Source: the human T2T-CHM13v2.0 reference genome, Homo sapiens. From it: 64,000 nt of DNA. Location: NCBI RefSeq assembly GCF_009914755.1, contig NC_060926.1; one strand, 5' to 3'. The notes beneath the pieces are model-generated. The model was not told where the DNA came from, made no database searches, and worked only from the letters and a program-made list of their open reading frames with translations. Below, piece by piece: positions 33,522-44,682 of the stretch (positions are counted from its first letter, which is position 1; the number at the start of each line of letters is the position of its first letter). A program made the position numbers and the translations under genes.

Positions 33522-33761
33522 CAGAGCCAGATCCAGAGGCGGTCACATCATAAATCAGATCTTTCAGAGTTTTTCCAGCATTTACCAGATTGCACTCAGA
33601 GAGTGGTTCCTCCACATTTGGTCTCTTTTTCTTCCTGTAGGAGCACTGTCGACCCTGGCATGCCCATACTGTCAGCATCGCAGCTATGGACAGGAGGCAA
33701 ACAGGCACAGTAATAATGATGGCCAGCTCCATGGGTCCAAGTTTTGGGGCATTTGGTGATG
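33522..33761 (-). CDS. ACVR1C: ACVR1C exon 3 (240 bp): juxtamembrane, transmembrane helix, GS box
   Basis: Translates to (A)[34 protein letters not shown]...RKKKR...DVTASGSGS(G), matching ALK7; acceptor ctgtag|CATC, donor TCTG|gtatgt; phase 1-1. Confidence 0.98.
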
Positions 33762-34087
33762 CTACAGTTTAAAGAAGAAAGAACATGACCATAAATCAAA
33801 CCATTTTAAGTATTTTTGGAATTGGAATTGCAATCACCAAAATTTCACATCCAGAATATTCAGCTACACAGTATGCACTTATGTTCATTGGTAAAGGCTC
33901 TCTGTGGTATAAGCAAAGATGGAGAAAAAAAATGAGATTAGGCTGCAGCTAGGAATGGTTATGGCAGATGACAATAAGAAATATGATTAGGATAATGGAA
34001 ACTAGCACATGGGATCTGTTTTAGGATCTCTGAAGCATTTCACTCTTTTCTGTCTACTATTTTCCCTCCATTATTCAGCAGTACACT

Positions 34088-34391
34088 TTTTTTTTTTTTT
34101 TTTTTTTTTTGAGATGGAGTCTCACTCTATCACCCAGGCTGGAGTGCAGTGGTGCGATCTGGGCTCACTGTAACCTCCACCTCCTAGGTTCAAGCCATTC
34201 TCCTGCCTCAGCCTCCTGAGTAGCTGAGATTACAGGTGCCCACCACCATGCCCAGCTAATTTTTCTATTTTTATAGAGACAGGGTTTCACCATGTTGGCC
34301 AGGCTGGTCTCAAACCCCTGACCTCAGGTGATCCACCCACCTCAGCCTCCCAAAGTGCTGGGATTACAGGCGTGAGCCACCATGCCTGGCC
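34088..34391 (-). mobile_element. AluSx-like, 330 bp upstream of the exon 3 acceptor
   Basis: Full dimer with T tail. Confidence 0.87.
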
Positions 34392-42567: not shown

Positions 42568-43777
42568 AAGAGTGGGGGAGGAGGGAAATAAGAAAAAGAT
42601 TATCACGAGATATTCCATTCATGATGAATCAGTCCAACATAAAAGAATACATAACTGCACTTTGATAGGAATTTGAAGTAGAATGGGCTAAGGAGCTAAG
42701 TCACAAACATCAACTTTTTTTGTCTAGTCCTCCCGTGTGAATCTGCACTTACTGGTTGCAGGCAGACACCCCCTCCACTCTCCCATCCTTGACTCCCTTC
42801 CCTTACAATGGTCACTTCTTCGTAGTGACCATTGTAAATTTCACCAAGAATCATCCAATTACAAGTTAATTCGCTTAGATCCCTCCAACATGCTCCATTT
42901 GCCATGCAGCAAATGGCCTCCCTTTTGCAAACAGCAAACATAATTATGTCAGAGGGGTTATCTGGGATCAATATGAACCTTATATACTGAATAAGGACAG
43001 AAGATTTTCTAATCCAGAGATCAAATCAAGCCATGATAGAGGCAGAAATAACATGACAATTATTTCTCCCTTTTAACTGAATCAAACGAGCTATTGATGG
43101 GCCATTCCACTGTTTGATGCTCAGTCTATAAACGGCTATTTGCATAAACGATCTTCATCTGGCCAGGTTTCATAATTTTATAGCTGACAGGGAGTGCCAC
43201 ACACAAAAATATTTCCTGGACATGTTCTCCTTGTGTTGCTGGTTTTCTGGGAGTAGATGATGAACATCAAGAGGCTGCAAATCTTCTTTTATCCATTAGC
43301 ATTGGAATTTAAGAAGAATAACATTTTTACGCTTTAAAGAAACAAGAATCTTGGATTAAGGAATATAATCGCTGTCATAAAAAGTATAAAGAACTTTCAC
43401 TCAAGCAGAGGTAAGCTTAATAAAATGTAAGCAGAATATAAATAAGTTCCATAATCAGTTTTCTTAATTTCAGGACACATACCTAGCAGAAATGATAGTC
43501 TCTTAATCTCTGTTATCAAAACACATATTCTCAAATAATGCATGTCTGTAAATAACTTAGATAGTAATTATTCAAGAAATATTTTAGAGTTCTTTTTTTC
43601 TTAAATCAACCCTTTACATAAAAAAAGAAAGTCTTTGGAAGCAGCACCCATATCTCAATCTCTCTGTTTCCCCAGCACATAGTACAGAGCTATATTCACA
43701 GAAGACACTTAAAATACTGATGACAAGGGCAAGTTATACTTCTCTGTCCTAAAGTCTATGCTAGCTAGTGGGAATGT

Positions 43778-44682
43778 GGAGCCAAGATGGCCGAATAGGA
43801 ACAGCTCCGGTCTATAGCTCCCAGCGTGAGCGACGCAGAAGACGGGTGATTTCTGCATTTCCATCTGAGGTACCGGGTTCATCTCACTACGGAGTGCCAG
43901 ACAGTGGGCGCAGGCCAGTGTGTGTGCCCACCGTGCGCGAGCCGAAGCAGGGCGAGGCATTGCCTCACCTGGGAAGCGCAAGGGGTCAGGGAGTTCCCTT
44001 TCTGAGTCAAAGAAAGGGGTGATGGACGCACCTGGAAAATCGGGTCACTCCCACCCGAATATTGCGCTTTTCAGACCGGCTTAAGAAACGGCACACCACG
44101 AGACTATATCCCACACCTGGCTCAGAGGGTCCTACGCCCAGGGAGTCTCGCTGATTGCTAGCACAGCAGTCTGAGATCAAACTGCAAGGCGGCAACGAGG
44201 CTGGGGGAGGGGCGCCCGCCATTGCCCAGGCTTGCTTAGGTAAACAAAGCAGCCGGGAAGGGAAGCTCGAACTGGGTGGAGCCCACCACAGCTCAAGGAG
44301 GCCTGCCTGCCTCTGTAGGCTCCACCTCTGGGGGCAGGGCACAGACAAACAAAAAGACAGCAGTAACCTCTGCAGACTTAAGTGTCCCTGTCTGACAGCT
44401 TTGAAGAGAGCAGTGGTTCTCCCAGCACGCAGCTGGAGATCTGAGAACGGGCAGACTGCCTCCTCAAGTGGGTCCCTGACCCCTGACCCCCGAGCAGCCT
44501 AACTGGGAGGCACCCCCCAGCAGGGGCACACTGACACCTCACACGGCAGGGTATTCCAACAGACCTGCAGCTGAGGGTCCTGTCTGTTAGAAGGAAAACT
44601 AACAACCAGAAAGGACATCTACACCGAAAACCCATCTGTACATCACCATCATCAAAGACCAAAAGTAGATAAAACCACAAAG
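43778..44682 (+). promoter_or_regulatory. L1 5' UTR: CpG-rich internal sense promoter (YY1 motif caagatggccg) and antisense promoter
   Basis: ~905-bp L1HS-like 5' UTR with many CpGs retained; 5-bp duplication ggaag at 44256-44265 relative to the consensus as I recall it. Confidence 0.88.
44007..44222 (-). CDS. L1 ORF0 (71 aa), intact, same orientation as ACVR1C
   Basis: MAGAPPPASLPPCSLISDCCASNQRDSLGVGPSEPGVGYSLVVCRFLSRSEKRNIRVGVTRFSRCVHHPFL*; strong Kozak gcaATGG; internal donors CAG|GTGTGG (44117) and CAG|GTGCGT (44032). Confidence 0.88.
   Translation of the reverse strand: MAGAPPPASLPPCSLISDCCASNQRDSLGVGPSEPGVGYSLVVCRFLSRSEKRNIRVGVTRFSRCVHHPFL

What the first reader, a model, noticed from the sequence alone, without database searches (positions are those of the whole stretch)
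33522..44222. L1 antisense promoter with intact ORF0 is exactly in frame with ACVR1C exon 3: predicted ORF0-ALK7 fusion receptor without ectodomain
Seen: the L1 lies opposite to ACVR1C, so ORF0 (ATG at 44222, Kozak gcaATGG) reads toward exon 3, ~10 kb away. Its donor CAG|GTGTGG ends the exon at 44117, after 106 nt (35 codons + 1, phase 1). Exon 3 opens in phase 1, giving ...GAGCCAG|CATCACCA... = [52 protein letters not shown]..., 427 aa with TM, GS box and full kinase. Splicing to exon 4 is also in frame (347 aa, no TM or GS box). Established: the L1 antisense promoter and ORF0 donors yield fusions with host exons. I recall an L1-ACVR1C chimeric RNA reported alongside L1-MET in hypomethylated bladder cancer (needs verifying), but not this protein. 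Inference: a human-specific, methylation-gated, ligand-blind ALK7; RKKKR after the TM favours correct N-out topology without a signal peptide.
Basis: partly seen in the sequence, partly recalled or inferred. Interest (0 to 1): 0.85.

Follow-up and report, generated by a model that had tools for sequence, protein, structure and literature searches.

The report
L1 antisense ORF0 in frame with ACVR1C
A young but dead LINE-1 element in an intron of the activin receptor gene ACVR1C could, on paper, drive a receptor that lacks its ligand-binding part; the chimeric RNA is already published, while the fusion protein is only a testable prediction.

Summary
A full-length L1 lies antisense in ACVR1C intron 2. 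Its 71-codon ORF0 is intact, with ATG at 44222. The donor CAG|GTGTGG ends the exon at 44117 after 106 nt (phase 1). Joined to exon 3 it gives a 427-aa open frame with TM, GS motif and kinase; joined to exon 4 it gives 347 aa.

The mechanism is of a known kind. An L1-ACVR1C alternate transcript gated by hypomethylation was published in 2010 (Wolff et al.). ORF0 with two internal donors that fuse to host exons was published in 2015 (seen through reviews).

An in-frame match has about a 1 in 3 prior. Of three good L1 donors only the one weakest by U1 pairing gives the fusion. The chimeric RNA at the MET L1 carries an extra exon of its own. No RNA or protein data could be reached.

"Human-specific" is unverified. 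The element has a stop in ORF2 and a frameshift in ORF1, and differs at 17 of 1178 ORF2 residues from human L1 ORF2p.

Verdict: a plausible, unproven new member of a known kind; moderate interest.

The parts
43766..49816 (+). Full-length L1, about 6.05 kb, antisense to ACVR1C in intron 2. RefSeq masks 43774-49827.
   Evidence: It lies between the two copies of the target-site duplication. The canonical L1 5' start and the poly(A) tail were read. ORF1 and ORF2 match human LINE-1 proteins in the PDB.
43752..43765 (+). 5' copy of the target-site duplication
   Evidence: Exact 14-nt repeat, 2 matches in the window, 0 expected from 100 shuffles.
49817..49830 (+). 3' copy of the target-site duplication, just after the poly(A) tail
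43766..44682 (.). L1 5'UTR. It holds the CpG-rich part with the antisense promoter region and ORF0.
   Evidence: The first 500 nt hold 29 CpG, observed/expected 0.68, GC 0.59. Counts per 100 nt are 6, 8, 5, 5, 6 and then 0-2. The placing of the antisense promoter in the first 600 bp comes from Criscione 2016.
44007..44222 (-). ORF0: 71 codons plus a TGA stop, intact
   Evidence: The minus strand has no ATG upstream of it until 44618. Pfam gives no family.
44117..44222 (-). ORF0 part of the predicted first exon: 106 nt, 35 codons plus 1 nt
44111..44119 (-). First donor inside ORF0, CAG|GTGTGG, phase 1. It is the only donor in frame with exons 3 and 4.
   Evidence: 7 of 9 matches to CAG|GTRAGT. 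U1 duplex energy -7.1 kcal/mol; 20 of 614 GT sites in the interval pair as well or better.
44026..44034 (-). Second donor inside ORF0, CAG|GTGCGT, phase 2
   Evidence: 8 of 9 matches. Joined to exon 3 it gives a frameshifted 118-aa ORF, and joined to exon 4 an 86-aa ORF. U1 duplex energy -7.8 kcal/mol.
43963..43971 (-). Third L1 donor, CAG|GTGAGG, downstream of the ORF0 stop
   Evidence: 8 of 9 matches. U1 duplex energy -11.6 kcal/mol, the best of the 614 GT sites in the interval.
33522..33761 (-). ACVR1C exon 3 (240 nt): juxtamembrane stretch, TM helix, basic RKKKR stop-transfer stretch and the first part of the GS motif
   Evidence: RefSeq table in the finding.
33667..33723 (-). Transmembrane segment, residues 49-67 of the predicted fusion
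   Evidence: Best 19-residue Kyte-Doolittle window, mean 2.53. The coordinates were worked out by hand.
11350..27822 (-). ACVR1C exons 4-9 (coding parts 27592-27822, 21876-22043, 20137-20293, 18521-18645, 16004-16134, 11350-11475): rest of the GS motif and the kinase
   Evidence: RefSeq table. Pfam finds TGF_beta_GS profile positions 18-28 and kinase in exon 4, and kinase in exons 5-7.
44683..45549 (+). L1 ORF1 remnant, 288 aa. The frame is lost near codon 272.
45758..49585 (+). L1 ORF2: 1275 codons, open except for one in-frame stop at codon 332
   Evidence: It differs from PDB human ORF2p at 14 of 847 and 3 of 331 residues.

Best explanation
This is an L1 antisense-promoter locus inside ACVR1C, most likely the 'L1-ACVR1C' already published. 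A young, full-length but coding-dead L1 sits antisense in intron 2. Its CpG-rich 5'UTR carries the antisense promoter and an intact ORF0.

When the CpGs lose methylation, transcription starts in the L1 and runs toward exon 3. The first exon can end at any of three L1 donors. If the first ORF0 donor (44117) is joined directly to exon 3, ORF0 codons 1-35 continue in frame into ALK7. The product is a 427-aa protein with a 48-residue non-native N-terminal stretch, the native TM helix, the GS motif and the kinase, and with no ligand-binding ectodomain. If exon 3 is skipped, a 347-aa product results that has the kinase but no TM helix.

Shown: the sequence anatomy and the frames. Published by others: methylation-gated chimeric RNA from an L1 in ACVR1C, and ORF0-exon fusions as a class. 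Inferred: that this donor-acceptor pair is used (my estimate about 40%), that the protein is made (about 20%), that it inserts N-out, and that it cannot respond to ligand.
For: - Anatomy and frames.
- ORF0's ATG is the first ATG for any start site up to about 400 nt upstream and has purines at -3 and +4.
- Exactly two donors with at least 7 of 9 consensus matches lie inside ORF0. This matches the 'two splice donor sites' described for ORF0.
- The donor at 44117 pairs with U1 at -7.1 kcal/mol, inside the range of the six native ACVR1C donors (-4.5 to -9.6). Only 20 of 614 GT sites in the interval pair as well or better.
- The same intron stretch carries no annotated exon in the selected RefSeq transcript (hub table).
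- The first 500 nt of the L1 keep 29 CpG, observed/expected 0.68, which fits control by methylation.
- Wolff 2010: hypomethylation of an L1 in ACVR1C goes with expression of an alternate transcript in cell lines and bladder tumours.
- Without ORF0, translation would meet an out-of-frame ATG in exon 3, opening a 22-codon ORF, 20 nt before the in-frame Met. The ORF0 frame is therefore the efficient route to a kinase product.
- Charges around the TM helix: the N flank has 2 positive and 4 negative residues in 48, and the C flank 6 positive and 2 negative in 20. By the positive-inside rule this fits an N-out, C-in orientation.
Against: - No junction read, ribosome footprint or peptide was available.
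- Only 1 of 3 candidate donors gives the fusion, and it is the weakest by U1 pairing. The donor at 43969 (-11.6 kcal/mol) is the best of all 614 GT sites and lies after the ORF0 stop.
- L1-MET carries two exons of its own, L1-MET exons 1 and 2, before the shared exon 3.
- A crude scan finds 6 candidate cryptic exons between the L1 and exon 3, and 5 of the 6 would break the frame.
- Ten AATAAA signals lie on the transcribed strand in between.
- A frame match has a prior of about 1 in 3.
- Denli's survey observed fusion at only 57 of about 3200 ORF0 loci, as quoted by Criscione.
- The identity of Wolff's L1 with this one is not verified, since ACVR1C extends about 42 kb beyond the window.
Confidence: 0.6

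Rival explanations
1. The chimeric RNA exists, but the in-frame relation is a coincidence with no protein behind it. Antisense transcripts mostly use the two other donors or take up cryptic exons. They then yield only ORF0p, or short frameshifted peptides, followed by an untranslated or NMD-prone ACVR1C tail. Their main effect would be transcriptional interference, or use as a marker of hypomethylation.
For: - The donors at 44032 and 43969 pair better with U1 (-7.8 and -11.6 against -7.1 kcal/mol).
- The 44032 donor gives frameshifted ORFs of 118 and 86 aa.
- The 43969 donor leaves a complete 71-codon ORF0 upstream of the ALK7 frame.
- L1-MET has two exons of its own, L1-MET exons 1 and 2.
- 5 of 6 candidate cryptic exons break the frame.
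- 57 of about 3200 ORF0 loci were seen fused.
Against: - The donor at 44117 lies within the range of the native donors.
- It is one of the two ORF0-internal donors reported to be used for fusions.
- The first donor after the cap is often favoured (general knowledge, not tested here).
Confidence: 0.35
2. This L1 is not the published L1-ACVR1C and is silent. Its antisense promoter stays methylated or has decayed, and nothing is made from it.
For: - The gene runs to window place 105964, so other L1s may lie in the unseen part of introns 1 and 2.
- Wolff's map and primers could not be seen.
- The element has lost CpGs beyond position 500.
Against: - It is the only repeat of about 6 kb in the 64 kb shown (hub table).
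- It is full-length and antisense to the gene, and keeps a CpG-rich first 500 nt. These are the properties by which Wolff et al. chose their L1s.
Confidence: 0.1
3. Gene-breaking: the antisense L1 mainly splits ACVR1C into two transcripts. One is an upstream RNA of exons 1-2 that ends at polyadenylation signals on the antisense strand of the L1. The other is a downstream RNA driven by the antisense promoter. In this reading ORF0 is incidental.
For: The concept is cited for antisense intronic L1s in Hancks and Kazazian 2016. The orientation fits.
Against: Antisense polyadenylation sites inside this L1 were not tested here. RefSeq's selected transcript reads through the L1. This reading does not exclude the fusion.
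Confidence: 0.1

Closest known systems
L1-ACVR1C alternate transcript (Wolff et al. 2010, PLoS Genet, PMC2858672)
   Same: An L1 inside ACVR1C, antisense to the gene, acts as an alternate promoter. Expression goes with hypomethylation in bladder cancer lines and tumours (passages read). It is probably the same locus.
   Different: The passages I read say nothing of ORF0, which was described five years later, nor of the donor used, the frame or a protein. Figure S3, a map with 'ATGs', and Table S1 could not be seen, so the identity of the L1 and the exon structure are unverified.
L1-MET (L1PA2 in MET intron 2; Matlik 2006 and Wolff 2010)
   Same: An antisense L1 promoter in an intron of a receptor kinase gene gives a transcript in the host reading frame. 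That transcript encodes an N-terminally truncated receptor kinase, and it is gated by methylation.
   Different: L1-MET has two exons of its own, L1-MET exons 1 and 2. A review of TE-initiated truncated proteins states in general that protein expression requires a downstream ATG. Here the L1's own ORF0 ATG would start the protein. MET is a tyrosine kinase receptor; ALK7 is a serine/threonine type I receptor that needs a type II partner.
ORF0-host exon fusion proteins (Denli et al. 2015, Cell; seen only through others' accounts)
   Same: An intact ORF0, two donors inside its coding sequence, and splicing to a nearby host exon that yields an insertion-site-specific fusion protein.
   Different: Whether ACVR1C is among the 57 observed fusions is unknown to me. 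The paper and its tables are not held, and a full-text search for ORF0 plus ACVR1C found 0 papers.
Exon-3-skipping 'soluble' and 5'-truncated ALK7 isoforms (RefSeq lists 4 transcripts; details recalled, not checked)
   Same: Natural ACVR1C isoforms already vary in ectodomain and TM content. Exon 3 is 240 nt long, so skipping it keeps the frame.
   Different: As I recall them, those isoforms start at the gene's own promoter and keep at least part of exon 2. None starts in the L1.

Membership tests
L1 antisense-promoter chimeric transcript | Full-length L1 with its 5'UTR, antisense to the host gene and upstream of a host exon | tested here: met
   L1 on the + strand at 43766-49816, with target-site duplication, 5'UTR, ORF1 and ORF2. 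The gene is on the - strand and exon 3 lies 10.4 kb downstream (hub table).
L1 antisense-promoter chimeric transcript | [quoted passage not shown] | not testable with these tools
   No RNA data were available. Wolff 2010 reports an L1-ACVR1C transcript by RT-PCR, but I could not map it to this L1.
L1 antisense-promoter chimeric transcript | Observed splice junction from an L1 donor to a host exon | not testable with these tools
   Only the splice signals could be scored.
ORF0-host exon fusion protein | Intact ORF0 start codon in a good context, with no upstream ATG in the antisense transcript | tested here: met
   Context gcaATGg. The nearest upstream ATG on the minus strand is at 44618.
ORF0-host exon fusion protein | Splice donor inside the ORF0 coding sequence | tested here: met
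   Two GT donors lie inside ORF0, at 44117 (7 of 9 consensus matches) and 44032 (8 of 9). Both are within the U1-pairing range of the native donors.
ORF0-host exon fusion protein | Frame continuity from ORF0 into the host coding exon | tested here: met
   Met for the donor at 44117 with exon 3 (427 aa) and with exon 4 (347 aa). Not met for the donor at 44032 (118 and 86 aa).
ORF0-host exon fusion protein | Evidence of translation (footprints or peptides) | not testable with these tools
   No Ribo-seq or mass-spectrometry data were on hand.
TGF-beta family type I receptor (ALK7) | Ligand-binding ectodomain | tested here: not met
   The predicted fusion starts with 35 ORF0 residues and enters ALK7 at exon 3. 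Exons 1-2 lie outside the transcript and outside the window (hub table). ORF0 has no Pfam family.
TGF-beta family type I receptor (ALK7) | Single TM helix followed by a GS motif and a Ser/Thr kinase domain | tested here: met
   TM helix at fusion residues 49-67, Kyte-Doolittle mean 2.53. Exon 4 holds TGF_beta_GS profile positions 18-28, and exons 4-7 give kinase matches; 4 of the 8 scanned pieces had matches. The first part of the GS motif in exon 3 did not score on its own.
Human-specific L1 (L1HS, Ta) | ACA trinucleotide at the diagnostic 3'UTR site (motif recalled, not from a call) | tested here: not met
   The site reads ATG. ATG could derive from the recalled pre-Ta ACG by CpG decay, so the subfamily stays open between pre-Ta L1HS and L1PA2.
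Human-specific L1 (L1HS, Ta) | Absence from the orthologous site in other apes | not testable with these tools
   No primate genomes are held. The decay seen (17 of 1178 ORF2 residues changed, one stop, one frameshift) suggests an age of some millions of years (inference).

The most novel reading that the evidence does not exclude
In cells where this L1 is unmethylated (early embryo or pluripotent cells, placenta, hypomethylated tumours), the ORF0-ALK7 fusion is translated and inserts N-out into membranes. It then acts without ligand. It could be a weak constitutive SMAD2/3 activator through ligand-independent pairing with type II receptors, perhaps helped by the three cysteines in its new N-terminal stretch. 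Or it could be a dominant-negative sink. Either way a hominid-lineage L1 insertion would have created a methylation-gated receptor isoform of the Nodal/activin pathway.
Probability: 0.1. Interest if true: 0.75.

Novelty: new member of a known kind. Interest (0 to 1): 0.4.

Why it matters
ALK7 carries activin B and Nodal signals that bear on apoptosis, fat metabolism and tumour suppression. A form without the ectodomain, switched on only when an intronic L1 loses methylation, would uncouple that kinase from its ligands. This would happen in exactly the states (pluripotency, placenta, cancer) where L1 promoters are open. Such a protein would be a concrete, functionally readable case of an ORF0 fusion, and few of those have been studied. 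Its junction peptide could also serve as a tumour-restricted antigen. If the junction is not used, the locus remains what was already known: a marker transcript of L1 hypomethylation.

Tried and rejected
Literature.
- ACVR1C + LINE-1 + antisense promoter: 1 paper, Wolff 2010.
- ORF0 + ACVR1C: 0 papers.
- L1-ACVR1C: 1 paper, the same one.
- ORF0 + splice donor + LINE-1 + fusion: 17 papers, 16 listed; five were read for their ORF0 passages.
- ACVR1C + L1PA2: 0 papers.
- ALK7 + LINE-1: 4 papers, unrelated by title, none opened.
- ACVR1C + transposable element + chimeric: 1 paper, an RNA-therapeutics review, not opened.
- ACVR1C + retrotransposon: 11 papers. One was Wolff 2010, read before. Two more were opened and proved irrelevant. 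The other 8 were not opened.
- Two searches for ALK7 isoforms gave only noise by their listings.

So I found no printed ORF0-ALK7 fusion. But Denli 2015, Matlik 2006, Speek 2001 and Macia 2011 are not held.

Subfamily and age. No L1 reference DNA and no primate genome were on hand. I used PDB ORF2p and ORF1p as stand-ins, which cannot separate pre-Ta L1HS from L1PA2.

Splice strength. No MaxEnt model was on hand. I used consensus matches and U1 duplex energy, which are proxies only. The cryptic-exon scan is crude, and its 6 candidates are not predictions.

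Full report
**What is in the sequence**

On the minus strand an ATG sits at 44222-44220 in the context gcaATGg. Read through, it opens a 71-codon frame that ends with TGA at 44009-44007.

The surrounding repeat is a full-length L1 on the plus strand.
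- It is bounded by an exact 14-nt target-site duplication at 43752-43765 and 49817-49830. The window holds 2 matches, and none of 100 shuffles gave any.
- It has a canonical 5' start and a poly(A) tail.
- Its ORF1 and ORF2 match human LINE-1 ORF1p and ORF2p in the PDB at E = 0 to 1e-103.

The small ORF is thus ORF0, the antisense ORF of primate L1 5'UTRs. It points the same way as ACVR1C, which is on the minus strand. The L1 lies in intron 2, about 10.4 kb upstream of exon 3 (hub table).

- CAG|GTGTGG places the last exon base at 44117, which is 106 nt from the ATG, phase 1.
- Exon 3 (33761-33522, 240 nt) follows a ...ctgtag acceptor, and its native frame begins after two bases.
- A script that joined 44222-44117 to annotated exons 3-9 by coordinates gives 1284 nt and a single 427-aa frame ending at the native stop.
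- Joined to exons 4-9 it gives 347 aa, because exon 3 is a multiple of three.

In the 427-aa product the best hydrophobic window is residues 49-67 (Kyte-Doolittle mean 2.53). The ORF0-derived N-terminus has no window above 0.56, so it is not a signal peptide. The N flank holds 2 basic and 4 acidic residues in 48. The 20 residues after the helix hold 6 basic and 2 acidic residues, including RKKKR.

I scanned eight pieces against Pfam: ORF0 and exons 3-9. Four gave matches. Exon 4 holds TGF_beta_GS profile positions 18-28 and the start of the kinase, and exons 5-7 hold kinase. ORF0 and exons 3, 8 and 9 gave none at E up to 0.01. The GS motif therefore straddles the boundary of exons 3 and 4.

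**How special is the frame match?**

Three GT sites between the ORF0 ATG and 43600 match CAG|GTRAGT at 7 or more of 9 places.

| Last exon base | Matches | Phase | Place relative to ORF0 |
|---|---|---|---|
| 44117 | 7 of 9 | 1 | inside |
| 44032 | 8 of 9 | 2 | inside |
| 43969 | 8 of 9 | 2 | after the stop |

The first two lie inside ORF0, as the literature says of ORF0's two donors. Only 44117 is in frame with exon 3 or exon 4. The donor at 44032 gives frameshifted ORFs of 118 and 86 aa. The donor at 43969 leaves a complete ORF0 upstream of the ALK7 frame.

A given phase fits a given exon about one time in three, so the match by itself is not evidence of function (inference).

As a proxy for donor strength I computed duplex energies with the 5' end of U1, a short motif that I recalled.
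- The three L1 donors score -7.1, -7.8 and -11.6 kcal/mol, in the order of the table.
- The six native ACVR1C donors score -4.5 to -9.6.
- The 614 GT sites of the interval have a mean of -2.3.
- 20, 8 and 1 of the 614 sites pair as well as or better than the three L1 donors, in the same order.

The fusion donor is therefore credible, but it is the weakest of three competitors.

**What favours the fusion**

- ORF0's ATG is the first ATG for any antisense start up to about 400 nt upstream, since the nearest upstream ATG is at 44618.
- Criscione et al. place antisense starts of L1HS and L1PA2-8 in the first 600 bp of the 5'UTR.
- A transcript that lacked or skipped the ORF0 ATG would meet an out-of-frame ATG in exon 3, at 33752, opening a 22-codon ORF. 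This comes before the in-frame Met at 33732.
- The ORF0 frame is thus the efficient way to translate the kinase part.
- The fused frame ends at the native stop in the last exon, so it should escape nonsense-mediated decay (inference).

**What is already known**

Wolff et al. 2010 (PMC2858672; passages read) chose an L1 'located within ACVR1C' from a list of antisense intronic L1s with ESTs. They showed that its hypomethylation goes with expression of an alternate transcript, in bladder cancer cell lines and tumours.

Several things in that paper bear on the present claim:
- The passages I read do not mention ORF0, the donor, the frame or a protein for ACVR1C.
- Its Figure S3 ('map of alternate transcripts ... 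ATGs') and Table S1 (primers) could not be seen.
- I therefore could not prove that their L1 is this one. The gene extends about 42 kb beyond the window.
- For MET, both L1-MET transcripts share the reading frame of MET and gave truncated MET proteins when expressed. This is the closest analogue.
- The L1-MET transcript has two exons of its own, L1-MET exons 1 and 2. This warns against assuming direct splicing.

ORF0 and its fusions (Denli 2015) I know only through others' accounts:
- ORF0 has two internal donors that fuse to nearby exons.
- About 3000-3200 loci exist, of which 57 were seen fused.
- ORF0 dates back to L1PA8.

My searches for ORF0 plus ACVR1C (0 papers), and the others listed under Tried and rejected, found no printed ORF0-ALK7 fusion. 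Unseen supplements may list it.

**Obstacles between the L1 and exon 3**

A crude scan looked for an acceptor with at least 12 of 15 pyrimidines, a YAG and no upstream AG, followed by a donor with at least 7 of 9 matches within 40-300 nt. It finds 6 candidate cryptic exons. Five of the 6 would shift the frame or bring a stop. One, of 57 nt, would stay open. Ten AATAAA signals lie on the transcribed strand. The same stretch is removed from the native pre-mRNA with no exon annotated in the selected RefSeq transcript, which argues mildly for exon 3 as the next acceptor.

**Age of the L1**

- ORF2 is open for 1275 codons apart from one in-frame stop at codon 332.
- ORF1 loses its frame near codon 272 and stops at codon 289.
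- ORF2 differs from PDB human ORF2p at 14 of 847 and 3 of 331 residues, counted by hand from the alignments.
- The 3'UTR site that I recall as diagnostic (ACA in Ta, ACG in pre-Ta, GAG in older elements) reads ATG.
- The first 500 nt keep 29 CpG, observed/expected 0.68.

The element is young, either pre-Ta L1HS or L1PA2. It cannot retrotranspose and is probably some millions of years old (inference from general substitution rates). 'Human-specific' is neither shown nor excluded, because no ape genome was on hand.

**Function, if the protein is made**

By established knowledge of type I receptors, ligand brings the type I and type II ectodomains together. The type II kinase then phosphorylates the GS motif. 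Without an ectodomain the fusion cannot be recruited by activin B or Nodal.

It could be inert. It could be weakly active through ligand-independent pairing with type II receptors. I recall reports that deleting the ectodomains of TGF-beta receptors allows ligand-independent activation; I did not check them. It could also be dominant-negative. An N-out orientation is favoured by the charge distribution but is untested.

**Verdict**

The locus is a new, predicted member of a known kind: an L1 antisense-promoter or ORF0 chimera, like L1-MET. The RNA part is already published. I estimate about 40% that the exact junction occurs and about 20% that the protein is detectable. Interest is moderate, since the prediction is clean and cheap to test.

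Noticed in passing
window 45758-49585 (+), 44683-45549 (+): The L1 is nearly intact. ORF2 is open over 1275 codons apart from a single in-frame stop at codon 332. ORF1 loses its frame near codon 272.
   Followed up: partly
window 43766-43777 (+): Twelve bases lie between the 5' target-site duplication and the canonical start of the L1 (GGAGCCAAGATGG...). They may be a variant or untemplated 5' end.
   Followed up: no
window 33752 and 33732 (-): Exon 3 holds an out-of-frame ATG, opening a 22-codon ORF, 20 nt before the in-frame Met that precedes the TM helix. It would hamper translation of any 5'-truncated ACVR1C mRNA that lacks an upstream in-frame start.
   Followed up: partly
window 43963-43971 (-): The L1 donor CAG|GTGAGG, just after the ORF0 stop, pairs best with U1 of all 614 GT sites between the ORF0 ATG and exon 3 (-11.6 kcal/mol). 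It is likely a strong competitor for any ORF0-internal donor, here and in other L1 copies.
   Followed up: partly
window 33522/27822 exon boundary (-): The GS motif is split between exons 3 and 4: Pfam TGF_beta_GS positions 18-28 start exon 4. Any isoform that skips exon 3 loses the TM helix and the first part of the GS motif together.
   Followed up: no
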